This document shows positions 6,965 to 39,273 of a stretch of DNA of 64,000 bases, one piece after another. The DNA is from Escherichia phage ECOP18: sequence record NC_105825.1, one strand, 5' to 3'. The notes under the pieces are model-generated. The model saw only the letters and a program-made list of their open reading frames with translations. It was not told the origin of the DNA and did not search any database. Position 1 is the first letter of the stretch, and every line of letters begins with the position of its first letter. The position numbers and the translations under genes were made by a program.

Positions 6965-7051
6965 TGGTGCTGGGCACAGGATTCGAACCTGTAACGGGAT
7001 TACTCCTCCTGATTACAAATCAGGTGCATTCAACCATTCTGCCGACCCAGC
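6965..7051 (-). tRNA. long-variable-arm tRNA, anticodon reads TGT
   Basis: Perfect T-arm and anticodon stem CCTGA/TCAGG; 15-nt variable region; 87 nt. Confidence 0.5.
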
Positions 7052-7958: not shown

Positions 7959-8035
7959 TGGGGTGGCTAGTGAAATTCGAATCCACATAGGCCTGATTCA
8001 CAATCAGGATCATTAACCAATTATGATATAGCCAC
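7959..8035 (-). tRNA. tRNA-His (GTG)
   Basis: Perfect acceptor and anticodon stems; loop TTGTGAA. Confidence 0.75.
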
Positions 8036-8401
8036 AATTGAAAACTCGCAGGGTTAGCGAAACCTTCCTCAATTAGCATGTTCTAGAATACTAATCAAGT
8101 TATCTCCTATTGCACGCAGCTCAAGACGAGTACGAATTTTCAATTGTGGCGGCTCTCAGAAACTCTTCTACTCTAGTCTTAGCAGCTTACTCCCGAACGC
8201 ATGTCGGGGAAGTCTTACTAAGCGCATCAAATAGCACCGTTACACTTTGAGCCATTGGTGTATTAAGAAGCAGAAGGACTTGAACCTTCACGAGATAGAC
8301 CATTTATCTCAGCCGCTTTATGAGGTATGTTGCAGGGAGTGGATGTTCCCTATAAACCTTTTAGGCAGCCCCGTCTACCGATTCCGGCATACTTCAGGAT
8401 T

Positions 8402-8496
8402 TGGAGGTAGGTAAGGGGATCGAACCCTTACACCGTATCACTACGATCAACCGATTTCAAGTCGGAGTCCAGCGCCAGCCATTGGATTGACCTACC
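8402..8496 (-). tRNA. tRNA-Ser (TGA)
   Basis: Type II, 95 nt; anticodon loop CTTGAAA. Confidence 0.7.
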
Positions 8497-8508
8497 ATAT
8501 AAATTGTT

Positions 8509-8599
8509 TGGCGGAAGAGGAGAGATTTGAACTCTCAAGCCGTTTTACCAGTCAGCCACTTTCCAAGCGGTTTTCGTCACCAATTCGATTTGCTCTTCC
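8509..8599 (-). tRNA. long-variable-arm tRNA, anticodon unresolved (possibly Ser GGA)
   Basis: Perfect acceptor stem and T-arm; D-loop AATTGGTGA; anticodon arm non-canonical by hand. Confidence 0.5.
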
Positions 8600-8711
8600 A
8601 ATAACAAGATGATGCCTCTATCACACCAGGCAGTTACGCCTCGCTGGGATTCGAACCCATTAAAACAGCTCAACCGAGATAGTAGGTTTAATTTACTCTG
8701 ACCATCAAATT

Positions 8712-8788
8712 TGGTGCGTGACAAGGGATTCGAACCCTCAAAACCCGACTTCTAAGGACGGTATGTATGCCAATTCCATCAATCACGC
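8712..8788 (-). tRNA. tRNA, anticodon reads TAG
   Basis: Acceptor and T-arm present; anticodon loop CTTAGAA; short variable arm. Confidence 0.5.
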
Positions 8789-9425: not shown

Positions 9426-9503
9426 TGGAAGCGGGTGCAGGAATCGAACCTACCTCTTTCTAGCTTATGAGACTAGCGATCTCTACCAGAGATCTAACCC
9501 GCA
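9426..9503 (-). tRNA. tRNA-Met/Ile2 (CAT)
   Basis: Anticodon loop CTCATAA. Confidence 0.6.
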
Positions 9504-9509
9504 ATTGTT

Positions 9510-9585
9510 TGGTCAGTGCGGCAGGACTCGAACCTGCGACCCGAAGCATCCAAGGCTCCCACGCTACCAACTGCGCTACGCACTG
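9510..9585 (-). tRNA. tRNA-Pro (TGG)
   Basis: Perfect acceptor and T stems; loop CTTGGAT. Confidence 0.75.
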
Positions 9586-9594
9586 TTAATTCTT

Positions 9595-9792
9595 TTATTG
9601 TGGAGGAATATTAATAATTCGTCCGTCTACACAATAAACGGTACTAGGAATTGTACTATATATGTAGAAATTCTTTATATTACTCTCTCCGCCACAGAAA
9701 TTTTTAGCAAATTCATACTCTTTATTAATGGTTGAGTCAAGTTTAAAACAACCAGTAAGTAGGAATACAGACAGCAGTAAAACTTTTTTCAT
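9595..9792 (-). CDS. small lipoprotein
   Basis: Signal peptide with lipobox LLTGC; consensus promoter upstream. Confidence 0.5.
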   Translation of the reverse strand: MKKVLLLSVFLLTGCFKLDSTINKEYEFAKNFCGGESNIKNFYIYSTIPSTVYCVDGRIINIPPQ

Positions 9793-9824
9793 TTTGCTTT
9801 CCTTCTCAACACTTTATAAGGTAT

Positions 9825-9853
9825 ATTATACAGAGAATTAAGCATAATAGCAA
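9825..9853 (-). promoter_or_regulatory. sigma70-type early promoter
   Basis: TTGCTA-N17-TATAAT upstream of lipoprotein gene. Confidence 0.6.
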
Positions 9854-10002
9854 ATGAATTTTTAATAAATTTACTTATTGTGTAGGCCACCTGGAGGCTA
9901 CCAACCCCACGGCTGACAAAGAAGTTTGCGAGACCTCTCTTAAGTGCCAGAATAGACCCGCCGATCTATCGGAACCTACATAATAAGTAAACTTTATAGT
10001 GT

Positions 10003-10123
10003 CATTCTAGACAGGACTCGAACCTGTTATCACTTGTGCGGACTTACGAGAACCATTCTTTCACTCGAATCGAACGAGCTTCTGCCCTCGCCAAGCTGGT
10101 TTCCCCATCAACCACGCTAGAAT
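10003..10123 (-). ncRNA. aberrant tRNA-like element (121 nt)
   Basis: Perfect 7-bp end pairing (ATTCTAG/CTAGAAT) and canonical T-arm, but no 7-nt anticodon loop and an extra internal hairpin. Confidence 0.3.
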
Positions 10124-10287
10124 GTTTGATTGTTTTCAGTGCAAGAGTCCGAGTCTTGGACACGACCGCTTCGCAAGTACATAGGCAGCTTATCATGAGT
10201 CAGCACTTCCGAATTGCTAGCTCCGTGTTCTGCACTGAAATTTTATTAGTTTAACCGTAAAGTATTATCTACTTCACCATTAATTGT

Positions 10288-10593
10288 TCAGCATTCTTCT
10301 GGGATTGCTGGTGTAGCCTTATATTCCCACCATTCAGAACCGTCGTATTCACCACGTTCTAACCAAGTTCCATCAGTAAACCACACGTTACCATAAAGCA
10401 ATTGCCCACCGAAACCAGAATCATATTTAAAGTCTAGATTATTTAGAAAATCTTCAATATCTTTTTCTGTATAACCTACGGGTAACACCCAAACTTCTTT
10501 GTCCCCATAATAACCGAATTCTATCTTAATACACTTAACTTCAGAATTAATATTCTTTAAGGCAAGTAACAATTCTTCTTTAGCATTAATCAT
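10288..10593 (-). CDS. hypothetical protein
   Basis: 101-aa ORF. Confidence 0.5.
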   Translation of the reverse strand: MINAKEELLLALKNINSEVKCIKIEFGYYGDKEVWVLPVGYTEKDIEDFLNNLDFKYDSGFGGQLLYGNVWFTDGTWLERGEYDGSEWWEYKATPAIPEEC

Positions 10594-10619
10594 AGCATAT
10601 TTCTCGTACTAGTTTAATT

Positions 10620-10696
10620 TGGCGCGACCGATGGGATTTGAACCCACATTCTCTCCCGTGACAGGGGAGTACCATTACCAAGCCAGCCCCGGTCGC
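10620..10696 (-). tRNA. tRNA-Asp (GTC)
   Basis: Perfect acceptor and anticodon stems; loop CTGTCAC. Confidence 0.75.
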
Positions 10697-10705
10697 ATAA
10701 TTCAT

Positions 10706-10891
10706 TTACTCAGCTTTGAGTTTTTCAATAGCTGCATTAAGTTCTTTAAGAAACTTTTTTCGTACATTAAGACGGTTGAGACTTACTAGTATATCATGTT
10801 TAAGTTCTTCGATGTATTTCTTCTCAACTTCAATATTGTTGATAGTGCTATCACGATGAACTTCTAGCTGTGCAATTACATTCTTGGACAT
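10706..10891 (-). CDS. hypothetical protein
   Basis: 61-aa ORF. Confidence 0.4.
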   Translation of the reverse strand: MSKNVIAQLEVHRDSTINNIEVEKKYIEELKHDILVSLNRLNVRKKFLKELNAAIEKLKAE

Positions 10892-10993
10892 GCTTGTTTC
10901 CTCAGTTATTAATGAAAATGGTATCTGTGACTGAATTCGATGTCAGCAATGATAGCTGGTTGGCTACCGGTTTACTTAACTCTACACAGAATT

Positions 10994-11076
10994 TGGCGGG
11001 CCGTGTAGGATTCGAACCTACGTTGTCTTTCGACATGGATTAACAGTCCACCGCCAAACCGCTTGGCTAACGACCC
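10994..11076 (-). tRNA. tRNA-Asn (GTT)
   Basis: Anticodon loop CTGTTAA; 13-nt variable region. Confidence 0.6.
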
Positions 11077-13461: not shown

Positions 13462-13539
13462 TGGTGGCTCCCCGAGGATTCGAACCTACGTACCTTCCGG
13501 TTATGAGCCGGGTGCTCATACCATATGAGCTTGAGAACC
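13462..13539 (-). tRNA. tRNA-Met/Ile2 (CAT)
   Basis: Anticodon arm CCGG/CCGG with loop CTCATAA. Confidence 0.55.
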
Positions 13540-17244: not shown

Positions 17245-18041
17245 TTTAAGTATTTTTAAGAACTCTCGTAAAAACTCTTAAAAATACAGACGATACCGGG
17301 AGAGTCATAAGTCTCACTCATTAAGTATTTCAAGACAAAATACAGTAACGTCTATTATTTTCCAGTTTAAGTCAGGGTGACTTAGTGGTTATGTCCTGCG
17401 GTATATTGAGGACTCGGTTAGGCTTGGGGTCATGACTTCCCACCTTTTGCTGCTACTCAACAGGAGTTATCGCGAATTACCTGTGCTATTGTGCACCATT
17501 AGTGACATCTCTCATGTCAGCATTTCCCACTTTGTGGATAGCTTGAAAAACTACTCCGATATGGAGAAAGAACTTCACTATCCTAGAATACCTTCTAAAG
17601 TTCTTCTTTAGCCTGGACATAGTTAAATCGTAATAAAACTATTCAGCAGACTGGTTGGTTAGTCTGGAACCAACTACCGCGTGGTTTAGGCAGTGCGCAA
17701 CTAACCTCGGAAGCTTTTATGTTAAAAGCATCAGTTATCCAGTTCTTACCGACCGTAGGATTCGAACCTACATCTTCCACCAGTTACGGCTTGATAATAC
17801 CAATTATACTAGGACGGCAGTGTTACTACATAAGTGATTTCCACACCCCACTATTTATAAATCAGAGAAGAGTTTAGGGGAGAGGTTTCAGACGCCTCAT
17901 TTTACACGTTCTAGCCACTAACCGGGATTGCCGCCCCCTGTGTACTAGTTTTACAACTAACCCACCGACTCTATTCAATGCGCTCCGGTTGGGATTCTGC
18001 ACTCAGCGTAATCGGCTCGCTGTTCCCTAATTTATGAATAT

Positions 18042-18751: not shown

Positions 18752-19219
18752 TTAAGTTTTAGTGACAACAGGTTTATAGAATGTATGTCCCTTAATCTTA
18801 GTTGTTTTCTTAAACTTCTTTGTCCAGTAAGGTTTATCTTTACCACTATGGAAGTATAGTGCTCCATATGTAGGATCTTGTGGTAAATCAACGTAGTATA
18901 TCACTCTAGCTAAATTCTTAGCGGTTTGCCAAGCCTCATCAGTTTTATCAACTTTTGGTCTCTTAGATACCCAAGAGAACTGGTTAGACTGATATACTAC
19001 TTTACAGTAGGAATCTGGGAATTTACCGGAGTTTACACGGTTTTTAGTAACATGTGCAATCGCCGTCATTCCCTTTATGCCCTCACCACGACTTTCGAAA
19101 TAGATATTTTTAGCAATGCAATCTATTTCTTTTGCATCGTGCGATGCCTGACTACTAAAGCTGAAGGTAAGGGCAGCTACTAAAAGCAAAGCTGCCTTCA
19201 TTCTTTTTACTCCTGCCAA
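18752..19219 (-). CDS. secreted cell-wall hydrolase (SleB/Hydrolase_2-like)
   Basis: Signal peptide; family resemblance recalled from motif NIYFESRGE. Confidence 0.5.
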   Translation of the reverse strand: MAGVKRMKAALLLVAALTFSFSSQASHDAKEIDCIAKNIYFESRGEGIKGMTAIAHVTKNRVNSGKFPDSYCKVVYQSNQFSWVSKRPKVDKTDEAWQTAKNLARVIYYVDLPQDPTYGALYFHSGKDKPYWTKKFKKTTKIKGHTFYKPVVTKT

Positions 19220-30386: not shown

Positions 30387-32261
30387 ATGAATCGCAATGA
30401 AGAACTAAAGTATAAAGAAATGCAGGCGTTAATTAGAAACTGCAAAGAGATTATCGAAGGGTCAGCAGATGAAGAGCTGCTGTTTAATAATGCCAATAAA
30501 CCCTCAGAACGTTTCCCTACACAAAGGGATATGCTTGCAGGTGAATTGAGTAAGTATCTGATTCTAGAAGAAATGCCCATTCAGATTCGAAATGCTCATA
30601 TGATTGGAGATATTCATTTCCATGATGCTGACTATGCTGCATTAGGTATGACTAACTGTTGTCTGGTAGCTCTGGAAGATATGTTGAAGAATGGTATGAA
30701 GGTTGGTAATGCTGAAATTAGCACTCCAAACTCTATCACTACTGCGGCAGCTATTACAGCTCAGATTATCACTCAGGTTAGCTCCCATCAGTATGGTGGT
30801 ACTTCTGTAGATCGCCTTGATGAAGTATTAGCCCCTTATGTTCGTAAATCCTATGACAAAAATCATGCGTTTGCAAAACGTTGGACTAAGGATGAAGCCA
30901 AAGCATCCGTAATGGCTACGGAGATGACTGAAAAAGAAGTCTATGATGCTTGTCAGGGTCTAGAGTATGAAATCAATACGATGTTCAACTCTAATGGTCA
31001 GAGTCCATTTATTACCTTTGGTTTTGGTCTAGGGACTTCTTGGGAAGCACGTCTAGTACAGAAAGCAATACTGAAAGTACGTATGGATGGCTTAGGCATC
31101 AATAAACGTACAGCTATCTTTCCGAAACTGGTGTTTGTTCTGCGTGATGGCGTAAATATGAAGCCAGGAGATGTTAATTATGACGTCAAGAAGTTAGCTA
31201 TGAAATGTACTGCTGAACGTATGTATCCAGATTATATCAGCTATGATAAGGTTGTAGAAGTTACTGGGGACTATAAAGTTTCTATGGGCTGCCGTTCATT
31301 CCTAGCTGCTACAGAAGATGGTGAAACTGCCGGTCGTAATAACTTAGGTGTTGTTTCTGTAAACTTGCCTAGAATTGCTATCGAAGCTGAAGGAAATATT
31401 GACCTATTCTTTGATTTGCTTGAGCTACGTGTAGATACAGCATTAAAAGCGTTGGAGTGGAGAGTTGATCGCTTAAAATACATTCAAGCTAAAGCTGCAC
31501 CCATCCTCTATATGTCAGGAGCCTTTGGGTTACGTTTGGGGCCTGATGAATATGTATTCGATCATTTCTATAACCGTGCTTCTGTATCTCTAGGGTATAT
31601 TGGTTGCCATGAAATGCTACAGTTCATGTTTGGCAAAGATGTAGACACAATGTCCGAGACCTGCATCAAGTTTGTTCAGCGTGTATTGCAGTACATGCGG
31701 GATAGAGTCGATCAGAAGAAGGAAGAAACTAAGTTAGGTTATAGCCTGTATGCTACACCATCAGAATCCCTATGTGACCGTTTTTGTCGTCTAGACCGTG
31801 AATACTTCCCGGAGCATGAAGATATTCTGTCCAAAGGATACTACACTAACTCTCACCACCTTGATGTAGAACGTAAAGTTGCTCCCAATGTGAAATTTGA
31901 TTATGAATCTAACTTTACGCCGATTGCTTCTGGTGGATGTATTTCCTATGTAGAACTACCGGATATGAAACGATTCCCAGATGCACTGGAATGGGTTATT
32001 AATTATGCTGCTAGTAAGGTTCATTACTTCGGTATTAATACTCCAGTGGATTCTTGTGGTAAATGTGGATTCTTAGGTGAAACAATAGCATCCGAAGATG
32101 GGTTTAAGTGCCCTATCTGTGGTAATCATGACCCTGAAACTCTTGAAGTAACTCGTCGAGTTTGTGGGTATCTTGGAAATCCGGGTGCTCGTCCATTTAA
32201 CCCCGGCAAACAGCACGAGGTTATGGGCAGAGTGAAACATCAGGATATTCGAGCTAAATAA
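30387..32261 (+). CDS. nrdD: anaerobic ribonucleotide reductase (class III)
   Basis: C-terminal glycyl-radical motif RRVCGYLG and CGKCG zinc site; TTGACA/TATAAT promoter. Confidence 0.85.
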   Translation: MNRNEELKYKEMQALIRNCKEIIEGSADEELLFNNANKPSERFPTQRDMLAGELSKYLILEEMPIQIRNAHMIGDIHFHDADYAALGMTNCCLVALEDMLKNGMKVGNAEISTPNSITTAAAITAQIITQVSSHQYGGTSVDRLDEVLAPYVRKSYDKNHAFAKRWTKDEAKASVMATEMTEKEVYDACQGLEYEINTMFNSNGQSPFITFGFGLGTSWEARLVQKAILKVRMDGLGINKRTAIFPKLVFVLRDGVNMKPGDVNYDVKKLAMKCTAERMYPDYISYDKVVEVTGDYKVSMGCRSFLAATEDGETAGRNNLGVVSVNLPRIAIEAEGNIDLFFDLLELRVDTALKALEWRVDRLKYIQAKAAPILYMSGAFGLRLGPDEYVFDHFYNRASVSLGYIGCHEMLQFMFGKDVDTMSETCIKFVQRVLQYMRDRVDQKKEETKLGYSLYATPSESLCDRFCRLDREYFPEHEDILSKGYYTNSHHLDVERKVAPNVKFDYESNFTPIASGGCISYVELPDMKRFPDALEWVINYAASKVHYFGINTPVDSCGKCGFLGETIASEDGFKCPICGNHDPETLEVTRRVCGYLGNPGARPFNPGKQHEVMGRVKHQDIRAK

Positions 32262-32303
32262 GCTAATCAGCCGGGTTGCTAGTCGACCTGGCTTTTATTT
32301 TAT

Positions 32304-32332
32304 TTGCTTTCAGCCAAAAATTTATATATAAT
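32304..32332 (+). promoter_or_regulatory. sigma70-type early promoter
   Basis: TTGCTT-N17-TATAAT. Confidence 0.6.
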
Positions 32333-32360
32333 AGATTTATAAATTTGAGAGGAGAAAGCT

Positions 32361-32642
32361 ATGAGCGAGTTGCTTCCTAAAGTAGATGTCTCCCATCTTG
32401 GAGAGCCTAGTGAAGAACGTAAGGCTCTAGATTGGTTGGGTGGATTTGATTATCGTCGTGTTGTTGCAACATGGAATGATAAGAAAGTTAAGAAGTTTCG
32501 GGTACATTATGTAGGTAAAGACAAGTGGCTCTGGATTGATTATGAAGAATCGAAGGGATCTACTAAGGCTGTGAAAATTTATCGTATGTATGGGTATTAT
32601 TATGCCCACTGTGATAAGAATGAATTTACAGTACAGAACTAA
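32361..32642 (+). CDS. hypothetical protein
   Basis: 93-aa ORF behind consensus promoter and GAGGAG RBS. Confidence 0.55.
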   Translation: MSELLPKVDVSHLGEPSEERKALDWLGGFDYRRVVATWNDKKVKKFRVHYVGKDKWLWIDYEESKGSTKAVKIYRMYGYYYAHCDKNEFTVQN

Positions 32643-32651
32643 GGAACAAGA

Positions 32652-32855
32652 ATGAAAAACGTAAAACATCTTAAATATCGCTTAATTTACAACGGACGTA
32701 TGGAAACAGAAGACCTGGCCCAGTTAGCTATTAATTCTAATGAGGTTACAGTGCGTGCGCTGGCAATTGAAAAGTTGCGTGCCTCTTATGAAAATCGTGT
32801 TATGGAATTGGAGGAGAAACTTTATGGCATTCTCGAAGCCGATGCTACCAGATAA
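32652..32855 (+). CDS. hypothetical protein
   Basis: 67-aa ORF. Confidence 0.45.
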   Translation: MKNVKHLKYRLIYNGRMETEDLAQLAINSNEVTVRALAIEKLRASYENRVMELEEKLYGILEADATR

Positions 32856-33045
32856 GGGTTTAAACGCCGCTTTGGAAAACGCATTAATGCAGCACTGGGA
32901 AACTGGTTATAAGGATGGTGTTGAATCCTGCGCTACTATGTTAGAAGTTATTGCTAATACCTTAATGGAGAAAGGCAATAAAGAATTAGCTGAGCTATTA
33001 GACAGTATTGGGCAAAACTTCAGAGAACAGGTGAAAAATGCGTAG
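32824..33045 (+). CDS. hypothetical protein
   Basis: Trimmed to ATG with GGAGA RBS; overlaps previous stop. Confidence 0.4.
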   Translation: MAFSKPMLPDKGLNAALENALMQHWETGYKDGVESCATMLEVIANTLMEKGNKELAELLDSIGQNFREQVKNA

Positions 33046-33865
33046 ATTAATTATTATTAGCGGTGCAGGTTTGAGTGTTGAAAGTGGTGTACGAGCTTTT
33101 CGTACTGATACTGCTAGTGGTAAAGCACTGTGGGATGATTATGATCTAGAAGAAGTATGTAATATTCATGCCTTTCGTGGTAATTTTTATCATAAAACCC
33201 ATATGTTTTACAACAAGCGTCGTGAAGAGCTAAAAACTGTTGAACCCAATCTTGCACATTTGCGTATTGGTGAATGGTATAAACAATATCCAGGTCAAGT
33301 AGTAAACTTGACTACCAATGTTGATGACCTTATTGAACGTGCAGGCGTTCCACATAGCGACATTCTGCACATTCACGGATATTTAAAAGAGGTTGTTGTA
33401 GCTGACAGCTACAATAGTAGTAATAAACGAATTATTGATGTTGGGTATAACTCTATTGACCCAGATGATTATAAATGGGTTAAACCTAATGTAATCTTCT
33501 TTGGTGAGCATGCTCCAGCATATACAGAAATGTACAATGTTTTTGATGGTATTACCAGTCAAGATATGATCATTGTGGTTGGTTGCTCTAACCAAGTAAT
33601 TAACTTCTACTGGGAATTATTTCCTGTTCTTAATTTGACTGCTGCCAAATTAATGGTAGTTAACTACTATGATAGTGCCCTAGCGACAGAGCCAGGCTAT
33701 CAAGGTATGACTCGTAGTGAGATGTACCAGTTGGAAGAACGCGGTGTCCCTTACTGGAGTAAAGGTGCGGTAGATGCTTTCAGTGATCCTGATTTTATTG
33801 CTCGTGTGGAAGCTCATTTAGAGGGTAGACCTTATATGCTGGGGAACAGACATGTCCATAGTTAA
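33038..33865 (+). CDS. Sir2-family (sirtuin-like) protein, no zinc ribbon
   Basis: NAD-binding motif GAGLSVESGVRAFR and HG (LHIHGY). Confidence 0.6.
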   Translation: MRRLIIISGAGLSVESGVRAFRTDTASGKALWDDYDLEEVCNIHAFRGNFYHKTHMFYNKRREELKTVEPNLAHLRIGEWYKQYPGQVVNLTTNVDDLIERAGVPHSDILHIHGYLKEVVVADSYNSSNKRIIDVGYNSIDPDDYKWVKPNVIFFGEHAPAYTEMYNVFDGITSQDMIIVVGCSNQVINFYWELFPVLNLTAAKLMVVNYYDSALATEPGYQGMTRSEMYQLEERGVPYWSKGAVDAFSDPDFIARVEAHLEGRPYMLGNRHVHS

Positions 33866-34034
33866 ATCTGTGTATACACATCCTGATGATATATTTGTAT
33901 GGGCGGACGGTAGTTGGTGCTATCGCTGTGAGCTGTGGGAAATGGACTATAAATCCGATGACTATGGTGTTATATATGTTGATACGGTTGAGTATGATAC
34001 GTTCTTAGAAAGGAACAAAGATGGAAATAAGTAA
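33852..34034 (+). CDS. hypothetical protein
   Basis: 60-aa ORF. Confidence 0.4.
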   Translation: MSIVKSVYTHPDDIFVWADGSWCYRCELWEMDYKSDDYGVIYVDTVEYDTFLERNKDGNK

Positions 34035-34527
34035 TACTCCAATTATTTTTCTAGACATTGATGGGGTGCTCAATTCGAGCATCTCCCACCATCATGCACC
34101 TGATGATGAAAAGATTTTCTTTGGAAGTGATTGGGTTTTCAAACCGCTTCTCAAGGCTTTTCAAGACTTTATTCGTTCTTCTCCAATAATGATTGTTGGG
34201 GTATCTTCATGGTTCTCTGTCAGGAATGAGATGGAGAACGTTCAGATTATGACCGGATTAGATCTTATCAATCGTTTTATTGGTACAACGGATTTTACTG
34301 GTGGTGGGCTATCTAGGGGTAATTCTGTTCTTCGCTTCGTTGAAAAGCATAAGCTCAAACATTGGTGTGTGCTGGATGATGCTGGTGCTATGATGTATCA
34401 GTACCCAACGGTTATAGTCAATGGTAGAACTGGAATAAACCTTCAAGATTTAAGAGCTGTTAGCTATATGTTAGAATTTAGTCCAGATCTTGAAATGTGT
34501 AAAGCTCTACAACAACTTAAGGTGTAA
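34021..34527 (+). CDS. HAD-superfamily hydrolase (putative nucleotidase/phosphatase)
   Basis: HAD motif I FLDIDGVLN near N-terminus. Confidence 0.5.
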   Translation: MEISNTPIIFLDIDGVLNSSISHHHAPDDEKIFFGSDWVFKPLLKAFQDFIRSSPIMIVGVSSWFSVRNEMENVQIMTGLDLINRFIGTTDFTGGGLSRGNSVLRFVEKHKLKHWCVLDDAGAMMYQYPTVIVNGRTGINLQDLRAVSYMLEFSPDLEMCKALQQLKV

Positions 34528-34529
34528 AT

Positions 34530-34955
34530 ATGTTCAATAATGTATTTTCTAAAGCTAACCCAATTTTGGTTAATTTTTGGCGTACTCTTCCAGCCAACCT
34601 GTATAATGAGGCTATTAACTCTTTGAAAATATGGTGTGAGAATAACGAAATCTCCTTTGCTTTTAAAGATGATATTGATGAGGCCCCTTGTATTGGTTTA
34701 ATTGTTCAGGTAGAGGAGGGTCTTGAAGAGATTGTGGGCTGGAAAGAGTTAGACGAAATGGGCTTAGTTTTTGCGTTAAATTATAAGCTGTTTATGCCTG
34801 CTAAGCATCGCCTTGTTGTTAACTATAAAACTAGTGAATCTCCTGGTTTTCAGGTTAATGAACGTTATGGTTGGTCTTACTCACCGGAAGAAGTAAATGA
34901 GGGGATTCAGAAACTTCGACGTTTCGGGTATATGATCCCAGGTTTAACTGCTTAA
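34530..34955 (+). CDS. hypothetical protein (paralog A)
   Basis: Shares motifs with next gene (DD.CIG, W.EL..MGL..ALN, C-terminal G.Y.PGL). Confidence 0.5.
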   Translation: MFNNVFSKANPILVNFWRTLPANLYNEAINSLKIWCENNEISFAFKDDIDEAPCIGLIVQVEEGLEEIVGWKELDEMGLVFALNYKLFMPAKHRLVVNYKTSESPGFQVNERYGWSYSPEEVNEGIQKLRRFGYMIPGLTA

Positions 34956-34964
34956 GGAGGCAGA

Positions 34965-35357
34965 ATGGAACAAGTATATTGGCGTCAGATTGATCCTAGT
35001 TTGGTGAAGCGTGCGGAGAAGCTGCTACAACGTTGGTTGGGGGTAAGACAAGCCTCCTTCACTTTTCCGGAGCAGCAAATAGACGATCCCTGTATTGGTG
35101 TTTTCCTATCAGGCTACGCTAGGGAATGGGAATTGGATTGGAATGAGTTGTCTGCTATGGGTTTAATTGTTGCCCTAAATTTCTCTTTGTTACACCCACG
35201 TGGTTTGGCTATATGTCGTGTGCCCGATGATGGTTGTTCGCCCCATCTTTTACAGGTGGAAGATGATATTTTGGAGTACACTCCAGATATTCTCAAAGAA
35301 GCTAAAGAACAATTAAACCGTGTTGGGATCTATGTTCCAGGCCTGAATGATGAATGA
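34965..35357 (+). CDS. hypothetical protein (paralog B)
   Basis: Tandem paralog of 34530-34955. Confidence 0.5.
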   Translation: MEQVYWRQIDPSLVKRAEKLLQRWLGVRQASFTFPEQQIDDPCIGVFLSGYAREWELDWNELSAMGLIVALNFSLLHPRGLAICRVPDDGCSPHLLQVEDDILEYTPDILKEAKEQLNRVGIYVPGLNDE

Positions 35358-35496
35358 TTTTTATTAGCTGAACTTTGTAATCCGGGCTATTAGTGCTCGG
35401 ATTATTACATAATCTTTTCAGTCGATTGACAGTCAAAATAAATTGTCGTTGACAATTTGGATGGATTATGTAATAATATATGTATTGGAGGTGAGG

Positions 35497-35949
35497 ATGT
35501 CATTCACACAGCAAGAACTTTTAGATAACTTCCGATATGAAGATGGTAAGTTATTTAGAACTACAGGAAGAAATGCAGGGAAAGAATGTTGTGTTTCTAC
35601 GGGTAACGGATATTACCGTATATCTCTAGGGAATAGGACTATGCTTCGGCATAGAGCAATATTTTTAATGCACCATGGATACTTACCTGATTTAGTAGAT
35701 CATGTGAACACTATAAAAGGTGATGATCGTATTGAAAATCTTAGAGAGCAGACGGTATCCGGTAATCTAAGAAATATCAAATACAAGAAAGGAATGCATG
35801 TTTACCCTTCTGGTAGTAAGAACTGGCAAGTAGTATTTACTATTAACCGTAAACGGATAGTTAAAGGAACATATGACAACTATGAGGTTGCATGTTCTAT
35901 GGCCAAGATGTTTAGAGGTCAATTATACGGTAGGGAATCAATCCAGTAA
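35497..35949 (+). CDS. HNH homing endonuclease
   Basis: HNH motifs (RHRAIFLMHHGYLP, VDHVNTIKGDDRIENL); start at MSFTQQ with GGAGGTGAGG RBS. Confidence 0.7.
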   Translation: MSFTQQELLDNFRYEDGKLFRTTGRNAGKECCVSTGNGYYRISLGNRTMLRHRAIFLMHHGYLPDLVDHVNTIKGDDRIENLREQTVSGNLRNIKYKKGMHVYPSGSKNWQVVFTINRKRIVKGTYDNYEVACSMAKMFRGQLYGRESIQ

Positions 35950-36483
35950 AATTTCATTTGCAAGGGAGTATTATTTTATAGTATAATATTCCCATAAATG
36001 AGAGACATTAGTAAAAATTGATTTTGCTAATTTTTCTTGTTTACAATCCGCGATACGGAACAGTTAGGCTGCCCCATTAAGGGTTGTTTTAACTGTTACG
36101 TGTTAGTTTTTAAACAAATAATTAATAGAATACTTAGCGATCTACATCCCGTAGGAACCCTGGTAAGGCCTCGAAGCAACCTAGTGTGAGGTGGTTGTGA
36201 AGTGAGACGGGAAGAGTGAAAAACTCTGAGAAGTGATGACGTAAGGTATACTGCATCTAGTATGAGCTAGTACATGAAGCATTAGGTGAGCAAATCTGGC
36301 TTAGCGGCCATCCTCAAGGATTTGTGCGGTATAGTGAAGCGGCAGTGTAGCGTGAAAGGGGAAGTTGCCACCCCCCTTCAGTATTTGCGATTAATTGTTG
36401 AGAAATTGACAGTAACAGTTGTTCTATTCTTTCTGAATAGTCCTAAAGAAAACTTATTTCATATCCAACACAGGAGTATTGTT

Positions 36484-39273
36484 GTGTTCTCAATCCTACA
36501 AGGTCATGCAGGATTTCATCGTGATTTAGCCACAGGCAATTGGCGAGAAGTTAAAGCAGAAGACTATCTTTTTGCTAAAAGATTTTCCTCAAAGCATCCT
36601 GAAGGTAAACCAGCTTCAATGCCCTTCAAGTTTGATGTAATTGATGAAGTTGATCCTCAAACCCTAGTAGAAATGCTTCCTCTTATGAGACGTTTAACGT
36701 CTGACCCTCATATCGTTGCGGTACGAGGTCGATGTCTTGCACCTAAAAATAATGTGCGACGTAAGAAGGGCAACTTTAATGTATCTAACCCAAGTCATAT
36801 AATCGCAATGGATGTGGATGGTATTGTAGATACAGGTGGTTGTAACAAGTTTGATCTTGTTGGCATGGCTCGACATATTATTAGAATGTTAAATAGTATT
36901 AGTGAGGATATGTTCCCTCTTGATGCAGGGTTTATCGCTCATGCATCGTCTTCGGCTGGGCTAAAACCAGGTATCCGAATGCACTTAATACTAGAATCTA
37001 ATGTTAAAGTAACTCAGGGTCAAATCAAATTCTTATTTACATCTATCAACGAAAGTAGTAGACAAAAGTATGGCTTTGATATTGCCGACTTAGCTTATTA
37101 CTCTTCCGTACAGCTTCATTATTTTGCAGATCCGTTATTTATCGATGGTATAGTAGATCCGTTTAAAGCGGAGGGTGCTTCACGTCTGGTATTTGTTAAG
37201 GGTTCTAAAGTAAATTTACCCAATAATCTGGTTGACTATGAAACAACTAGAGGAGAGTTTAAAGAGGAGTTCTACTCCTTACTCGATCAAATTAAAGGTA
37301 AAAAGGCTGCCTCTGATAAAGTAGAAGAAACCATCAGCGAGTTAGAAGAAGCCGAGGATGGAGTGTATCTACGTATTATTCCTAAACTCTATCACAGAGC
37401 TTTAGAGGATGGTGTTGATTTTGCATGGCTAGAAAAAGAAATCCGCCCAGCCTTATCAGAATATATTGCAACTAAAGATAATAGTCGTAATATTCAAGAC
37501 TACTTTAATAACGGTCGTAAACAGGCTCTGAAAGCGTTTGTTAATAATTCTAAACGCGATATACCTGATGTTTTAAAAGGTATTCCACTTAAAAAGCTAG
37601 AAACTAATTCTCTAGAAACTGATAACTTCTTGAAATTAAACACTGTACCACCAGAAGGTTATATGACTTTTGTAAAAGCAAGTCTAGGTACAGGTAAAAC
37701 TACGGCGGTTGTGCGTTGGTTGGATTCAGGAGTTATTAAAGGTAATTTCTTAGCAATTACCAATACTCGAGCACTGGTATCTTCAAATGCTAAGAAATTT
37801 AGTGCAGGACAATATGATAAGTCTGTAGATATGCTTAATTTTAAGCGTGGTGCTATTGACCGTATGTCCACAACTATTCACTCTTTGCATAAATTCAAGA
37901 GTTTTATTGGTCAAATTGACGCAATCTTTATCGATGAATGTGATGCAGTAATGAATGACCTATTATTCGCCCCGGTTGTTAAGCAACGTCGCGAGTGTAT
38001 TCAGGTTCTTAGGGATATTCTTGCAACTGCAAAAATCATTATATTATCCGATGGTGATATTAGTGCGGAAACAATTGAAGCATATGGTTCTTTGATTGAG
38101 TTCGATAAACCAGTTGCATTCTATAATCATCACCGTAAGATGCTGTCAAAAGCTCATGCTTATGAGTTCCCTGATGAATCCAGTATTTGGGTTGCACTTC
38201 AGACTTCTCTAGAGATGGGTGAGAAATCTATTCTAGTATCTGATTGTGGTCCTGATGAGCTGAATGAGAAGGGTATGGCACTACGTCGTAATACTGGTGC
38301 GTTAGTTAAGGAAATCCATTCAAACTCCACCTCAGATGTGGATATTCGACGTATTCTGGATTATACAACTAATGAGCTAATTGATCAACAAATTGATTGC
38401 TTATTATGTAGTCCATCCGTAACGAGTGGCGTTGACTTCAACTATTTCGATAATGTATTTGTTATTACTAGAACCAGTAATCAAGCGCCAAACATGCGTT
38501 TTCAAGCAATCAGGCGCGACCGTGGTGCTCAGAACATCTATTATTTTATTGATAAATCCACAAGTGGATTCTCCGCAGGTTCTGAACAATATAACATTGA
38601 TGAGGGTTGGCTGGAGTTAGCACAGCAATTATACGCACGTCGTAGGGAGCTGGAATCTAGGAACTATACTAGTACTTTACGTTATTACTTGCTTGATCAG
38701 GGTGCAACTATTGATATTTTCAGCGAAAGCTGGGGAACTATTGAAGGTGCTGGTAAAGAGTACACAGAAGAGCGAATCAAAGCTATTCTGCACTCAACTC
38801 CTGATTATTGTGCTCCACGTCATGCGGATGCGTATGAGGCTAAACTACTTCTTGTTCGCTATTATCATCTTGGGTCTATTAAAGATGTAACAGTTGAGCA
38901 TGTTGAACAATATATCAAAGATAAACCGAATGATCGAGCTGCATTCTTCCATAAGATGCACGAGATGTTCTGGGAAGATATTAAGAAGTGTTCAAATGTT
39001 ACTATCAAACCATTCATAGAAGCTCTGAAAGGTAAGAAGAAAGATTTCTTCCTTAAAACAGGTCAGAGTGCTAACCCAAAATATGCTAGAATGTATCTTG
39101 GTATGATGGGTATTGGTAAGGATATGAACACTGAAAATATTGTAGACTGGTACAGAACCTATTGTAAAATCGAGTGTATGCCAATTCCTTATAAGTTCAT
39201 GACTGACGAGGAAAAACATATGCATGATGAAGCAATGTCAGAGCTAGGTGCTAGAAATGACAGTGAAGAATAA
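36484..39273 (+). CDS. large P-loop ATPase / putative helicase
   Basis: Walker A LGTGKTT and Walker B FIDECDAV; start placed at in-frame GTG with AGGAG RBS (uncertain). Confidence 0.55.
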   Translation: MFSILQGHAGFHRDLATGNWREVKAEDYLFAKRFSSKHPEGKPASMPFKFDVIDEVDPQTLVEMLPLMRRLTSDPHIVAVRGRCLAPKNNVRRKKGNFNVSNPSHIIAMDVDGIVDTGGCNKFDLVGMARHIIRMLNSISEDMFPLDAGFIAHASSSAGLKPGIRMHLILESNVKVTQGQIKFLFTSINESSRQKYGFDIADLAYYSSVQLHYFADPLFIDGIVDPFKAEGASRLVFVKGSKVNLPNNLVDYETTRGEFKEEFYSLLDQIKGKKAASDKVEETISELEEAEDGVYLRIIPKLYHRALEDGVDFAWLEKEIRPALSEYIATKDNSRNIQDYFNNGRKQALKAFVNNSKRDIPDVLKGIPLKKLETNSLETDNFLKLNTVPPEGYMTFVKASLGTGKTTAVVRWLDSGVIKGNFLAITNTRALVSSNAKKFSAGQYDKSVDMLNFKRGAIDRMSTTIHSLHKFKSFIGQIDAIFIDECDAVMNDLLFAPVVKQRRECIQVLRDILATAKIIILSDGDISAETIEAYGSLIEFDKPVAFYNHHRKMLSKAHAYEFPDESSIWVALQTSLEMGEKSILVSDCGPDELNEKGMALRRNTGALVKEIHSNSTSDVDIRRILDYTTNELIDQQIDCLLCSPSVTSGVDFNYFDNVFVITRTSNQAPNMRFQAIRRDRGAQNIYYFIDKSTSGFSAGSEQYNIDEGWLELAQQLYARRRELESRNYTSTLRYYLLDQGATIDIFSESWGTIEGAGKEYTEERIKAILHSTPDYCAPRHADAYEAKLLLVRYYHLGSIKDVTVEHVEQYIKDKPNDRAAFFHKMHEMFWEDIKKCSNVTIKPFIEALKGKKKDFFLKTGQSANPKYARMYLGMMGIGKDMNTENIVDWYRTYCKIECMPIPYKFMTDEEKHMHDEAMSELGARNDSEE

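What the first reader, a model, noticed from the sequence alone, without database searches (positions are those of the whole stretch)
10003..10250. Aberrant 121-nt tRNA-like element plus a 10-bp inverted repeat closing a ~96-nt domain
10003-10123 has a perfect 7-bp end pairing and a canonical T-arm, but the interior has no standard anticodon arm and contains a second T-arm-like hairpin. Immediately after, TTTCAGTGCA (about 10135) and TGCACTGAAA (about 10241) are exact reverse complements around ~96 nt. This could be a disrupted tRNA or a distinct structured RNA.
Basis: seen in the sequence. Interest (0 to 1): 0.6.

Follow-up and report, generated by a model that had tools for sequence, protein, structure and literature searches.

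The report
Phage T5 tRNA-like RNA2 gene
The 121-base element is the already annotated "RNA2" of bacteriophage T5, a tRNA-shaped RNA of unknown function whose anticodon loop is replaced by a conserved 55-base folded module found in many unrelated large phages; the neighbouring inverted-repeat domain is a separate, conserved, unannotated 107-base module.

Summary
The window is a T5-like phage. On the minus strand, 10003-10123 is T5 RNA2, annotated in GenBank since 2004 as a "tRNA-like stable RNA with unknown functions". ARAGORN and Rfam call nothing there. It is not a broken tRNA. A covariance model finds 38 distinct relatives (50-126 bits; ordinary tRNAs score 36 or less). They occur in T5-like phages, T4-like Acinetobacter phages and uncultured phage contigs up to 363 kb. 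Only one occurs among 185,579 bacterial species genomes. Acceptor, D, anticodon and T stems all covary. The 7-nt anticodon loop is replaced by a 55-nt insert with invariant bases. The insert has a GGGY/RUCC helix with an unvarying G.U, a GUAA bulge, and a T-loop hairpin beside a UGG mini-hairpin (inferred second "elbow"). Only 2 of 38 members encode CCA; all 21 tRNA genes of the window do. Best reading: a non-decoding tRNA scaffold, processed by tRNA enzymes, that displays a functional module, possibly a decoy. It is dispensable in the laboratory. The inverted-repeat domain (10134-10240) is a discrete module 95-100% conserved in 226 phage records. It is formatted like T5 stable RNAs III and IV but has no covariation support. 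The object is known; its family-wide architecture appears undescribed.

The parts
10003..10123 (-). RNA2 gene: 121-nt tRNA-shaped non-coding RNA (T5 rna2 / T5s06 equivalent)
   Evidence: 98-100% identical to the stretch annotated rna2 in NC_005859, AJ604530 and AJ604531. Covariance model R1 scores it 125 bits. No ARAGORN or Rfam call.
10117..10123 (-). Acceptor stem, 5' strand (AUUCUAG); inferred RNase P cleavage site between 10124 and 10123
   Evidence: All 7 pairs show changes on both sides in 38 homologues. The cleavage site is an inference from tRNA-like geometry.
10004..10010 (-). Acceptor stem, 3' strand (CUAGAAU). The discriminator G is at 10003 and is followed by ACA, not CCA.
   Evidence: Only 2 of 38 family members encode CCA, against 21 of 21 tRNA genes in the window.
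10097..10114 (-). D-arm (UGGUU-GAUGGGGA-AACCA)
   Evidence: All 4 modelled pairs covary. Example: UGGUU/AACCA in T5 against UGGCU/AGCCA in INF11.
10092..10096 (-). Anticodon-type stem, 5' strand (GCUUG), pairing with 10032-10036 (CAAGU)
   Evidence: Covaries: GCUUG/CAAGU, GUCUG/CAGAU, GCCAU/GUGGU, GCCUG/CAGGU, GCGCUG/CAGUGC. 93% of cells paired. The extra pair 28-92 has 5 pair types.
10037..10091 (-). 55-nt conserved insert that replaces the 7-nt anticodon loop
   Evidence: Invariant or nearly invariant: GGG, G42, the T-loop bases, G70 G71, CGUAA, UCC, (GC)A.
10084..10087 (-). Helix Pa, 5' strand GGGC, pairing with GUCC at 10040-10043. It reads G-C, G-C, an unvarying G.U, then a covarying Y-R pair.
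   Evidence: G.U in 36 of 38 sequences and never replaced by another standard pair. Pair 40-81 is C-G in 9 and U-A in 19. Member L079, which lacks the hairpins, still keeps GGG and UCC.
10044..10047 (-). Invariant GUAA bulge opposite the single base A41 (10083)
   Evidence: C76 G77 U78 A79 A80 are invariant in 20 of 20 sequences and at least 95% conserved in 38.
10063..10079 (-). Internal T-loop hairpin (GCUCG-UUCGAUU-CGAGU)
   Evidence: 4 of 5 stem pairs covary, and these give the top three mutual-information pairs. The loop bases U50 U51 C52 A54 U56 and the closing G-C pair are invariant.
10050..10058 (-). Mini-hairpin GAA-UGG-UUC presenting the invariant GG (10053-10054). It is inferred to dock on the internal T-loop as D-loop G18/G19 do in tRNA.
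   Evidence: Pair 67-73 covaries: AU 14, UA 6, GC 5, CG 2. G70 is invariant. GG and the T hairpin are lost together in L079. The docking itself is an inference.
10011..10027 (-). Canonical T-arm (ACAGG-UUCGAGU-CCUGU)
   Evidence: 97% of cells paired; 3 pairs covary and 2 are invariant G-C.
10124..10133 (-). A-rich 10-nt spacer/leader (ACAAUCAAAC) between the repeat domain and RNA2
   Evidence: Similar A/U-rich leaders occur in homologues.
10134..10240 (-). 107-nt domain closed by the perfect 10-bp inverted repeat (arms 10134-10143 and 10231-10240); unannotated in T5, BF23 and phage 5
   Evidence: together with 7, 56 and 57 for the missing annotation. The strand is inferred from the orientation of all neighbouring genes.
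9880..9982 (-). RNAIV equivalent: the next stem-closed stable RNA (closing repeat 9867-9886 with 9975-9994), 20 nt downstream of RNA2
   Evidence: (z = -3.8).
9825..9853 (-). Promoter-like site (TTGCTA-17-TATAAT) matching T5 promoter P13a, which starts the next operon. It marks the end of the transcription unit that carries the repeat domain, RNA2 and RNAIV.

Best explanation
Identity (shown). Window 10003-10123, minus strand, is the gene for bacteriophage T5 RNA2. It belongs to a phage-specific family of tRNA-shaped non-coding RNAs.

Architecture (shown by comparison).
- It has a normal acceptor stem, D-arm, 5-bp anticodon-type stem, 5-nt variable loop and T-arm.
- The anticodon loop is replaced by a 55-nt module.
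- The module starts with a 4x3 internal loop ending in a conserved GCA.
- Next comes helix Pa, GGGY/RUCC, containing a G.U that never varies.
- Next comes an invariant GUAA bulge opposite one base, then a 2-bp helix (G42-C76, N43-N75).
- The module ends in a three-way junction that carries a true T-loop hairpin and a 3-bp mini-hairpin with a UGG loop.

Mechanism (inferred).
- RNA2 is transcribed within the polycistronic tRNA-cluster transcript.
- The tRNA frame makes it a substrate for host tRNA end-processing: RNase P at its 5' end and 3' trimming. The frame also makes it stable.
- The invariant GG docks on the internal T-loop and forms a second, miniature tRNA 'elbow' at the tip of a rod of about 12 stacked layers.
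- It cannot decode, because it has no anticodon loop.
- It is probably not meant to be aminoacylated, because CCA is not encoded.
- The conserved insert is the working part, displayed on a tRNA scaffold.
- Its most likely role is an accessory one: a mimic or decoy for a host or phage factor that reads tRNA shape.

The adjacent 107-nt repeat-closed domain (10134-10240) is a separate conserved module. It is most likely released from the same transcript, with its 3' end made by the RNase P cut at RNA2. Its terminal stem would protect it, as in T5 stable RNAs I, III and IV.
For: Identity.
- The window is 99.9% identical to T5-like phages.
- rna2 is annotated at the same place in NC_005859, BF23 and phage 5.

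Not a tRNA or a known family.
- Nothing from ARAGORN or Rfam, even at E up to 10.

Family.
- Model R1 separates 38 distinct members (50-126 bits) from tRNAs (36 bits or less).
- Members lie in tRNA clusters of T5-like phages, T4-like Acinetobacter phages 133 and ZZ1, and uncultured phage contigs of 14-363 kb.
- Only 1 member was found in 185,579 bacterial and archaeal species genomes, on a 167-kb contig.

Structure.
- 90% of cells are paired, against 61% in shuffles (0 of 500 reach the observed value) and 50% or less when partners are slid.
- The result is the same on a MAFFT alignment that was not fitted to the model: 92% against 68% and 56% or less.
- A mutual-information scan recovers all helices and adds pairs 28-92, 40-81 and 67-73.
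- The G.U is present in 36 of 38 members and never becomes another standard pair, although the next pair switches freely between C-G and U-A.
- Variant L079 has lost the T hairpin and the GG together but keeps the GGG/UCC/GUAA core.

Not for charging.
- 21 of 21 tRNA genes in the window encode CCA. RNA2 does not, and only 2 of 38 members do.
- Acceptor sequences and discriminators are not conserved. The first pair is A-U or U-A in 30 of 38.

Accessory role.
- T5Mos, with deletion 30661-38625 (AY543070 coordinates), lacks RNA2 and the repeat domain and still forms plaques (PMC11464382).
- The region is the del-1 deletion hotspot (PMC12483538).
- T5 tRNA-Lys and tRNA-Tyr from the same cluster counter tRNA-cleaving defences (PMC11464382).

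Repeat domain.
- 226 records at 90% identity or more, with fewer substitutions than the adjacent ORF end.
- Module boundaries fall at the repeat arms. In L039 and CRW-SP6 the domain starts 3-4 nt after a CCA end.
- Same size and format as annotated RNAIII and RNAIV.
Against: - No expression, end-mapping or binding data could be examined here. 'Stable RNA' rests on the GenBank note alone.
- The decoy role is inference from context. No partner is identified.
- Several key insert features are invariant (GGG/UCC, GG, T-loop, GUAA), so they cannot be tested by covariation. The GG-T-loop contact is a model.
- The main alignment was fitted to the model (partly offset).
- In the Acinetobacter phages and in L040 the acceptor and D parts look degenerate, so the tRNA frame is not universal.
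- The repeat domain has no covariation. Of 6 variable sites, 4 lie in predicted loops and 2 break a predicted arm.
- The repeat domain's fold z-score is only -1.6.
- A 10-bp inverted repeat alone is within chance.
Confidence: 0.55

Rival explanations
1. RNA2 is a tRNA gene that carries an intron, or a decaying tRNA pseudogene. In the first case the insert is removed to give a decoding tRNA. In the second it is junk inside a dead gene.
For: - The frame is fully tRNA-like, and ordinary tRNAs align to the model end to end.
- If 33-80 were removed, the remaining N81-U-C-C-G-C-A would be a 7-nt loop with U at position 33 and A at position 38.
- The 4-bp helix Pa is flanked by loops on opposite strands, which loosely recalls a bulge-helix-bulge splice motif.
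Against: - 55 nt is far too short for a self-splicing group I intron, and Rfam finds no intron or ribozyme.
- From general knowledge, no bulge-helix-bulge endonuclease is known in these hosts or phages.
- The hypothetical loop would have a pyrimidine at position 37. Its 'anticodon' would be CCG in most members and CCA in others, without matching changes elsewhere.
- Pseudogene decay is excluded by invariant insert bases and compensatory changes across distant phages.
- CCA is not encoded, unlike in every tRNA gene of the window.
Confidence: 0.05
2. The insert is a permuted copy of the 'top half' of a tRNA (a 7+5 layer minihelix plus elbow). Its first three pairs, G-C, G-C, G.U, imitate the tRNA-Ala/tmRNA acceptor. 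It either titrates enzymes that read that half (AlaRS, RNase P, CCA-adding enzyme, T-loop modification enzymes), or RNase P cuts it at 36/37 to give a two-piece or mini RNA.
For: - GGG/UCC is invariant, and the G.U never changes although the next pair covaries.
- The 5' strand has seven positions (37-43) before a 5-bp T stem.
- The T-loop consensus and the GG are invariant.
- The base before G37 is A or U, and an R-C-A tail follows UCC.
Against: - The resemblance to alanine identity elements is recalled from general knowledge and was seen after the fact. It was not tested.
- The module has no free 3' end.
- The 3' strand carries 3 extra bases (the GUAA bulge).
- The strand topology is mirrored relative to a tRNA.
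- The four or five 'type 2' members (L037, L128, L119, ZZ1) have A rather than G at the first position, and ZZ1 lacks the U.
Confidence: 0.12
3. The inverted-repeat domain 10134-10240 has no function of its own as an RNA. It is either just the structured 5' leader of RNA2, or a DNA-level footprint of the mosaic, homing-endonuclease-driven shuffling of the tRNA region, and its 10-bp repeat is incidental.
For: - A 10-bp repeat is within chance for 64 kb.
- No covariation was found, and 2 of 6 variable sites break a predicted arm.
- The fold z-score is -1.6.
- The domain is absent from R2-01, L060 and L049, where RNA2 follows tRNA-Lys directly, so RNA2 does not need it.
- The region is rich in HNH endonuclease genes and indels.
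Against: - It is conserved at 95-100% in 226 records and has fewer substitutions than the adjacent ORF end.
- Its G+C matches that of structured RNA genes.
- It moves as a unit whose ends coincide with the repeat arms.
- It has the same length and closing-stem format as annotated stable RNAs III and IV.
- A different 55-nt stem-closed element sits at the same place in DU_PP_V-type phages and shows a compensatory C-G to U-A change in its closing stem.
Confidence: 0.3

Closest known systems
Bacteriophage T5 RNA2 (gene rna2, locus T5s06; also annotated in BF23 and Salmonella phage 5)
   Same: It is the same locus: 98-100% identical sequence, same neighbours (tRNA-Asp, ORF T5.067, RNAIV, promoter P13a) and same strand.
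   Different: Nothing differs at the sequence level. The records I read hold no structure, family or function. The adjacent repeat domain is not annotated.
Canonical tRNA (Rfam RF00005)
   Same: 7-bp acceptor, D-arm, 5-bp anticodon stem, 5-nt variable loop and a T-arm with GG-UUCRANU-CC. Real tRNAs align to the RNA2 model over its whole length at 20-36 bits.
   Different: A 55-nt structured insert stands in place of the 7-nt anticodon loop. CCA is not encoded, while all 21 tRNA genes in the window encode it. The first pair is mostly A-U or U-A. ARAGORN and Rfam do not detect it.
Bacteriophage T4 species 1 and species 2 RNAs (rnaC, rnaD)
   Same: Small stable RNAs of 119-139 nt inside a phage tRNA cluster, with unknown function and a tRNA-like T-arm and acceptor end in rnaC.
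   Different: They do not match model R1 and lack the GGG...CGUAA.UCCGCA core. Only a short shared string (GGTTGAGATA) links rnaC with some RNA2 inserts. True family members do exist in other T4-like phages: Acinetobacter phages 133 and ZZ1.
T5 stable RNAs I, III and IV
   Same: For the repeat domain: 103-107 nt, closed by a terminal stem, placed next to tRNA-type processing sites in the same cluster, function unknown.
   Different: No sequence similarity was seen by eye. The repeat domain is not annotated and its stability is untested.
tmRNA tRNA-like domain and tRNA-Ala acceptor stem
   Same: A tRNA mimic without an anticodon. The string CGAGGG...CUCGUAA..CCGCA looks like the tmRNA pseudoknot-1 region, and helix Pa starts G-C, G-C, G.U as the alanine acceptor does. 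Both comparisons are from memory.
   Different: ARAGORN calls no tmRNA. There is no tag reading frame. The second pseudoknot stem cannot form. The real acceptor end of RNA2 is AUUCUAG, with U3-A70.
Engineered 'tRNA scaffold' RNAs (own knowledge: Ponchon and Dardel's method of inserting an RNA in place of the anticodon stem-loop to obtain stable, correctly processed RNA in E. coli)
   Same: Same design principle: a foreign structured module grafted on the anticodon stem of a tRNA frame.
   Different: RNA2 is natural, phage-encoded and evolutionarily conserved. The analogy is functional, not a family relationship.
Bacterial Y-RNA-like YrlA, and viral 3' tRNA-like structures
   Same: Non-decoding RNAs that copy the tRNA elbow.
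   Different: No Rfam hit. From memory, YrlA has its ends on the anticodon side and a closed acceptor, which is the opposite topology. Plant-virus tRNA-like structures are 3' ends of RNA genomes and are aminoacylated.

Membership tests
T5 RNA2 (annotated misc_RNA rna2) | Same sequence and same genomic position as the annotated feature in the T5 reference | tested here: met
   The 391-nt stretch is 98.0% identical to NC_005859 32829-33219, under the features rna2 and rnaIV. The offset derived from tRNA-Asp puts rna2 at window 10001-10125. BF23 and phage 5 agree.
T5 RNA2 (annotated misc_RNA rna2) | Accumulates as a stable small RNA in infected cells | not testable with these tools
   Only the GenBank note says 'stable'. 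No expression data were available.
Canonical tRNA | Cloverleaf frame: 7-bp acceptor, D-arm, T-arm with T-loop consensus | tested here: met
   All three helices covary in 38 homologues.
Canonical tRNA | 7-nt anticodon loop with U33 and an anticodon | tested here: not met
   The anticodon-type stem encloses 55 nt.
Canonical tRNA | Recognised by tRNA gene finders or covariance models | tested here: not met
   ARAGORN makes no call. Rfam RF00005 gives no hit, even at E up to 10.
Canonical tRNA | 3' CCA, encoded in all tRNA genes of this phage | tested here: not met
   21 of 21 tRNA genes encode CCA. RNA2 has G-ACA. Only 2 of 38 family members encode CCA.
tmRNA | Alanine-type acceptor (G3.U70), tag reading frame, pseudoknots | tested here: not met
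   No ARAGORN tmRNA call and no Rfam tmRNA hit. The acceptor has U3-A70. The RNA is 121 nt with no tag frame.
[quoted passage not shown] | Two pentaloop T-loops with conserved AG..A and UG..A cores that interlock (PMC3664808) | tested here: not met
   The RNase P strings that resemble the insert (AUAGGGCA and GGUAAACUCC) are a junction strand and the 3' strand of P10/11. They do not face each other and are not the T-loop module. RNA2 has one classical 7-nt T-loop in the insert, not two AG..A/UG..A pentaloops.
Group I intron in a tRNA anticodon loop / self-cleaving ribozymes | Catalytic core recognisable by Rfam models; for a group I intron, length of about 200 nt or more | tested here: not met
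   The insert is 55 nt, and Rfam gives no hit at E up to 10.
Intrinsic transcription terminator (for the 10-bp repeat) | G+C-rich hairpin with a 3-8 nt loop followed by a run of U | tested here: not met
   No terminator-like site in 9500-10900. The stem encloses 87 nt. On the transcribed strand it is followed by ACAAUCAAAC.
T5-type stem-closed stable RNAs (RNA I, III, IV), for the repeat domain | About 103-107 nt, terminal closing stem, located in the tRNA cluster next to tRNA-type processing sites | tested here: met
   107 nt with a 10-bp closing stem. It lies 10 nt upstream of RNA2 and 3-4 nt downstream of a CCA end in L039 and CRW-SP6. Compare RNAIII and RNAIV.
T5-type stem-closed stable RNAs (RNA I, III, IV), for the repeat domain | Detected as a stable RNA species in infected cells | not testable with these tools
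   No expression data. The domain is not annotated in three curated records.
RNA2 family as defined here (model R1) | Anticodon-type stem enclosing GGGY...[T-loop hairpin]...GG...CGUAA-R-UCC-RYA, followed by a T-arm; R1 score well above the tRNA scores | tested here: met
   The window element scores 125 bits, but it was in the seed alignment. Independent members score 50-126 bits (51-85 bits outside the T5-like genus), against 36 bits or less for tRNAs.

The most novel reading that the evidence does not exclude
The RNA2 family is a natural 'tRNA scaffold' that displays a permuted miniature of the tRNA top half. That miniature is a rod of about 12 layers that starts with an invariant G-C, G-C, G.U (the alanine/tmRNA acceptor signature), carries a GUAA bulge, and is capped by its own T-loop/GG elbow. 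Large virulent phages of several unrelated lineages would use it to titrate or redirect a host enzyme or defence nuclease that recognises the acceptor/T-arm half or the elbow of tRNAs (RNase P, AlaRS, CCA-adding enzyme, or a tRNA-cleaving immune effector). Alternatively, RNase P cuts it to release a mini-tRNA. If so, this would be a new class of RNA-based host-takeover or anti-defence factor, and it would give a function to the 'stable RNAs' that have sat unexplained in phage tRNA clusters for decades.
Probability: 0.15. Interest if true: 0.8.

Novelty: already known. Interest (0 to 1): 0.45.

Why it matters
RNA2 itself is not new. It has been annotated in T5, BF23 and phage 5 since 2004, and its function remains unknown.

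What this analysis adds:
- It is not a T5 oddity. It is one member of a phage-restricted family spread over T5-like phages, T4-like Acinetobacter phages and uncultured phage contigs of up to 363 kb. Rfam has no model for it.
- Selection acts on the insert, not on the acceptor sequence. The insert has a defined fold with a handful of invariant bases.
- Those bases are ready-made targets for mutagenesis and pull-downs: the G.U pair, the GUAA bulge, and the T-loop with its GG partner.

The same tRNA cluster has recently been shown to carry tRNAs that defeat tRNA-cleaving defences (PARIS, retron Eco7). A conserved non-decoding tRNA mimic sitting among them is therefore a sensible candidate for another counter-defence or host-takeover RNA.

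The work also flags an unannotated, highly conserved 107-nt module next to RNA2.

Tried and rejected
1. Rfam at gathering threshold over the whole window, and at E up to 10 over 9590-10620. Nothing at 9880-10250, only two chance hits inside the ORF.
2. Resemblance of the insert strings to conserved regions of the RNase P specificity domain (recalled from memory). I fetched E. coli rnpB and read the Rfam structure line. AUAGGGCA is a junction strand and GGUAAACUCC is the 3' strand of P10/11. They do not face each other, and neither is the double T-loop module, whose definition is in PMC3664808. Rejected.
3. Resemblance to tmRNA pseudoknot 1. There is no second stem, no tag frame and no ARAGORN tmRNA call. 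Rejected.
4. T4 rnaC/rnaD and T5 RNA1 as relatives. They share a short string only and do not match model R1.
5. Kink-turn, loop E/sarcin-ricin and UAA/GAN readings of the GUAA loop, checked by eye. The opposite-strand sequences do not fit. Left open.
6. Intron reading: see the rival explanations.
7. Genome-wide scan of 185,579 species genomes. 31 of the 32 pattern matches were not family members.
8. Covariation in the repeat domain. There is too little variation: 6 variable sites.
9. Homology between the T5 repeat domain and the 55-nt element of DU_PP_V-type phages. Only the string CGGACUCU is shared, so this is inconclusive.
10. The inverted repeat at 18893/18991. It lies inside a 155-aa ORF, so it was dropped.
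11. Literature searches for a function of T5 RNA2. None was found in the held library. The original papers are not in it.
Full report
WHAT THE WINDOW IS

The 1,034 bases around the finding are 99.9% identical to T5-type phages. ARAGORN finds 21 tRNA genes, all on the minus strand, between 5.9 and 17.2 kb. Rfam finds the same set plus two more. The finding lies between tRNA-Pro (9510-9585) and tRNA-Asp (10620-10696). Everything below is read on the minus strand.

CHECK OF THE OBSERVATION

- The terminal complementarity, the canonical T-arm and the second T-loop hairpin are all there.
- The exact repeat is 8 nt (10003-10010 with 10117-10124). Homologues show a 7-bp acceptor plus a discriminator G at 10003.
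- The 10-nt inverted repeat is exact. It lies at 10134-10143 and 10231-10240, with 87 nt between the arms, giving a domain of 107 nt.
- A third closed domain lies just downstream: arms 9867-9886 and 9975-9994.
- Perfect 10-nt inverted repeats with spacers up to 150 nt occur at 66 positions in the window. Dinucleotide shuffles give 14.5 on average. The repeat alone is therefore weak evidence.
- G+C is 0.42-0.50 over 9850-10250, against 0.28-0.36 in the flanks.
- Single-sequence folding gives z = -1.0 for the tRNA-like element, -1.6 for the repeat domain and -3.8 for the downstream domain.

IDENTITY

The T5 reference record (NC_005859) annotates two misc_RNA features here. They are rna2, 'tRNA-like stable RNA with unknown functions', and rnaIV, 'stable RNA with unknown functions'. 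Using the offset given by tRNA-Asp, they fall on window 10001-10125 and 9880-9982.

The separately annotated tRNA regions of BF23 and Salmonella phage 5 carry the same rna2 feature. In all three records the 121 nt between the upstream ORF and rna2, which hold the inverted-repeat domain, are unannotated.

ARAGORN and Rfam find nothing at 9880-10250, even with Rfam at E up to 10.

A FAMILY, NOT A RELIC

- BLAST finds RNA2 in 482 phage records down to about 75% identity. These are T5-like genera on Escherichia, Salmonella, Klebsiella, Yersinia and Pectobacterium.
- BLAST also finds partial matches in T4-like Acinetobacter phages 133 and ZZ1, inside their tRNA clusters.
- Pattern scans of IMG/VR brought in many more loci, on contigs of 14 to 363 kb.
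- A covariance model was built from 20 diverse copies. It separates 38 distinct members at 50-126 bits from ordinary tRNAs at 36 bits or less. The tRNAs align to the tRNA frame with the insert deleted.
- Members that were not in the seed alignment score 50-126 bits (51-85 bits outside the T5-like genus).
- The same pattern scanned over one genome for each of 185,579 bacterial and archaeal species gave 32 matches. Only one is a family member, on a 167-kb contig.
- The family is therefore essentially phage-specific. The window holds a single copy.

STRUCTURE

Counts on the 38-sequence alignment:
- 90.4% of cells form standard pairs, against 61% in shuffles (0 of 500 reach the observed value) and 50% or less when partners are slid.
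- Acceptor, D, anticodon-type, internal hairpin and T stems all show changes on both sides.
- That alignment was fitted to the model, so I repeated the count on the plain MAFFT alignment for the well-aligned part. The result was 91.6%, against 68% in shuffles and 56% or less when slid.

An all-against-all mutual-information scan returned the modelled helices at the top and added three pairs:
- 28-92, the 26-44-type pair that extends the anticodon stem.
- 40-81 (C-G in 9 sequences, U-A in 19).
- 67-73 (four pair types).

In T5 numbering (position p corresponds to window coordinate 10124 - p) the RNA reads:
- Acceptor stem: 1-7 with 114-120.
- D-arm: 10-27.
- Anticodon-type stem: 28-32 with 88-92.
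- Variable loop: 93-96.
- T-arm: 97-113.
- Discriminator: 121.

The 55 nt enclosed by the anticodon-type stem form:
- An internal loop: 33-36 opposite G85 C86 A87.
- Helix Pa: G37-C84, G38-C83, G39.U82, Y40-R81.
- A 1x4 loop: A41 opposite the invariant G77 U78 A79 A80.
- Helix Px: G42-C76, N43-N75.
- A three-way junction with a T-loop hairpin (45-61; loop UUCGAUU, with the tRNA T-loop consensus invariant) and a mini-hairpin (66-74) whose UGG loop holds the invariant G70 and near-invariant G71.

The G39.U82 wobble is present in 36 of 38 sequences. It never becomes another standard pair, although the next pair switches freely.

One natural variant (L079) has replaced the T hairpin and the GG hairpin together by a plain hairpin. 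It keeps GGG, GUAA and UCC. This variant supports two points:
- GGG pairs with UCC.
- GG and the T-loop belong together.

I infer, but cannot show, that GG docks on the internal T-loop as G18/G19 do in tRNA. That would give a second small 'elbow' at the tip of a rod of about 12 stacked layers.

NOT MADE TO BE CHARGED

- All 21 tRNA genes of the window encode CCA. RNA2 is followed by ACA, and only 2 of 38 family members encode CCA.
- Acceptor sequences and discriminators differ between members.
- The first acceptor pair is A-U or U-A in 30 of 38, which is unusual for tRNAs.
- In the Acinetobacter phages the acceptor and D parts look degenerate, and the element is simply flanked by tRNA genes.

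Selection therefore falls on the insert and the stems that hold it, not on acceptor identity.

MECHANISM

Shown:
- It is a transcribed-strand element of the tRNA operon.
- No promoter or terminator is predicted between tRNA-Asp and RNAIV.
- The next promoter-like site, 9853-9825, matches T5 promoter P13a.

Inferred:
- RNase P and 3' trimming release RNA2 from the polycistronic transcript.
- The tRNA frame gives stability. This is the same principle as the engineered 'tRNA scaffold' (own knowledge).
- The insert is the working part.

Context:
- T5Mos, with deletion 30661-38625, removes RNA2, the repeat domain and RNAIV, and is viable (PMC11464382).
- The region is the del-1 deletion hotspot (PMC12483538).
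- tRNA-Lys and tRNA-Tyr of this cluster neutralise the tRNA-cleaving PARIS and retron-Eco7 defences (PMC11464382).

My best guess is therefore an accessory tRNA mimic or decoy aimed at a factor that reads tRNA shape. I put about 0.3 on the decoy part and 0.55 on the whole statement.

THE INVERTED-REPEAT DOMAIN

- It is found only in T5-type phages and a few relatives: 226 records, all at 90% identity or more.
- It has fewer substitutions than the end of the adjacent ORF.
- It is a discrete unit. In L039 and in Salmonella phage CRW-SP6 it begins 3-4 nt after a CCA end. In several records homology starts 2-3 nt before the arm.
- RNA2 does not need it. R2-01, L060 and L049 have RNA2 directly after tRNA-Lys.
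- DU_PP_V-type phages have a different 55-nt stem-closed element at the same place, with a compensatory C-G to U-A change in its closing stem.
- Its size and format equal those of annotated RNAIII (14-nt closing repeat 8031-8044 with 8137-8150, next to tRNA-His) and RNAIV.
- There is no covariation. Four of six variable sites fall in predicted loops and two break a predicted arm.
- I read it as another spacer-type stable RNA whose 3' end is made by the RNase P cut at RNA2. The alternative, that it is only a leader or a recombination footprint, gets 0.3.

COMPARISONS THAT FAILED

- The RNase P specificity-domain resemblance did not survive inspection of the Rfam structure line.
- tmRNA, group I intron, known ribozymes and YrlA give no hits.
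- T4 rnaC/rnaD and T5 RNA1 do not match the model.

VERDICT

- The interpretation 'distinct structured RNA' is right; 'disrupted tRNA' is wrong.
- The object is already known (annotated RNA2), so novelty is 'already known'.
- The family-wide spread, the fold of the insert and the unannotated neighbour appear undescribed in the sources I could search. They make an old open question, what the stable RNAs in phage tRNA clusters do, experimentally approachable.

Noticed in passing
window 9867-9994 (minus strand): RNAIV equivalent. It is a 103-nt core closed by a 20-nt, 90% complementary inverted repeat, and it folds into a four-way junction with z = -3.8. It is the most strongly structured of the three adjacent domains. 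It is annotated in T5 only as a stable RNA of unknown function.
   Followed up: partly
window 8031-8150 (minus strand): A 14-nt perfect inverted repeat (8031-8044 with 8137-8150) encloses about 92 nt immediately 5' of tRNA-His. This corresponds to the position of T5 RNAIII. It has the same stem-closed format of about 105 nt as the finding's repeat domain.
   Followed up: partly
window 13465-13539 and 17747-17818 (minus strand): Two Rfam tRNA hits (40.3 and 35.5 bits) that ARAGORN does not call. The second lies inside the stretch annotated in T5 as the 719-nt 'RNAX, stable RNA with unknown functions', which suggests a tRNA-like unit inside RNAX.
   Followed up: no
L146 (Salmonella phage CRW-SP6) about 613-701: An unannotated tRNA-like sequence of about 88 nt with an alanine-type acceptor end (GGGGUCU...AGACUCC-ACCA, including G3.U70) but no ordinary T-loop. 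It sits between tRNA-Lys and the inverted-repeat domain.
   Followed up: no
window, all 21 ARAGORN tRNA genes: Every tRNA gene encodes its 3' CCA, mostly followed by an A-rich spacer (often AAAUU or AAUU). RNA2 is the exception in the cluster.
   Followed up: yes
L001 4502-4645 (T5 RNA1) and L006 1909-2047 (T4 rnaC): T5 RNA1 has a tRNA-Leu-like D-loop (GGAATTGGTAGAC) and a T-arm. It shares the string GGTTGAGATAAATGGTCT with the RNA2 inserts of Klebsiella and Yersinia phages. T4 rnaC has GGTTGAGATATGG. Neither matches model R1, so any relationship is distant or coincidental.
   Followed up: partly
window 6965-7051 and 10994-11076 (minus strand): tRNA-Thr (87 nt) and tRNA-Asn (83 nt) are unusually long for class I tRNAs. 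The T5 reference annotates tRNA-Thr as 75 nt.
   Followed up: no
L007 1436-1496, L023, L083 (DU_PP_V-type phages): A different stem-closed element of about 55 nt lies between tRNA-Lys and RNA2. Its closing stem shows a compensatory C-G to U-A change between phages (CAGAGU/ACUCUG against UAGAGU/ACUCUA). It shares CGGACUCU with the 3' part of the T5 repeat domain.
   Followed up: partly
window 10247-10594 (minus strand): The ORF upstream of the repeat domain ends at 10288 in the window (101 aa). The T5 reference ORF T5.067 is 115 aa and would end at about 10247. The C-terminus therefore differs between strains, which fits this stretch being more variable than the non-coding domain beside it.
   Followed up: no
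window 7959-8788 against NC_005859 30206-31708: The gap between tRNA-His and tRNA-Leu is about 676 nt here and about 1,340 nt in the T5 reference. ARAGORN finds no tRNA-Ser(UGA/GGA), tRNA-Gly(UCC) or tRNA-Val in the window. This strain therefore carries deletions in the del-1 tRNA region.
   Followed up: no
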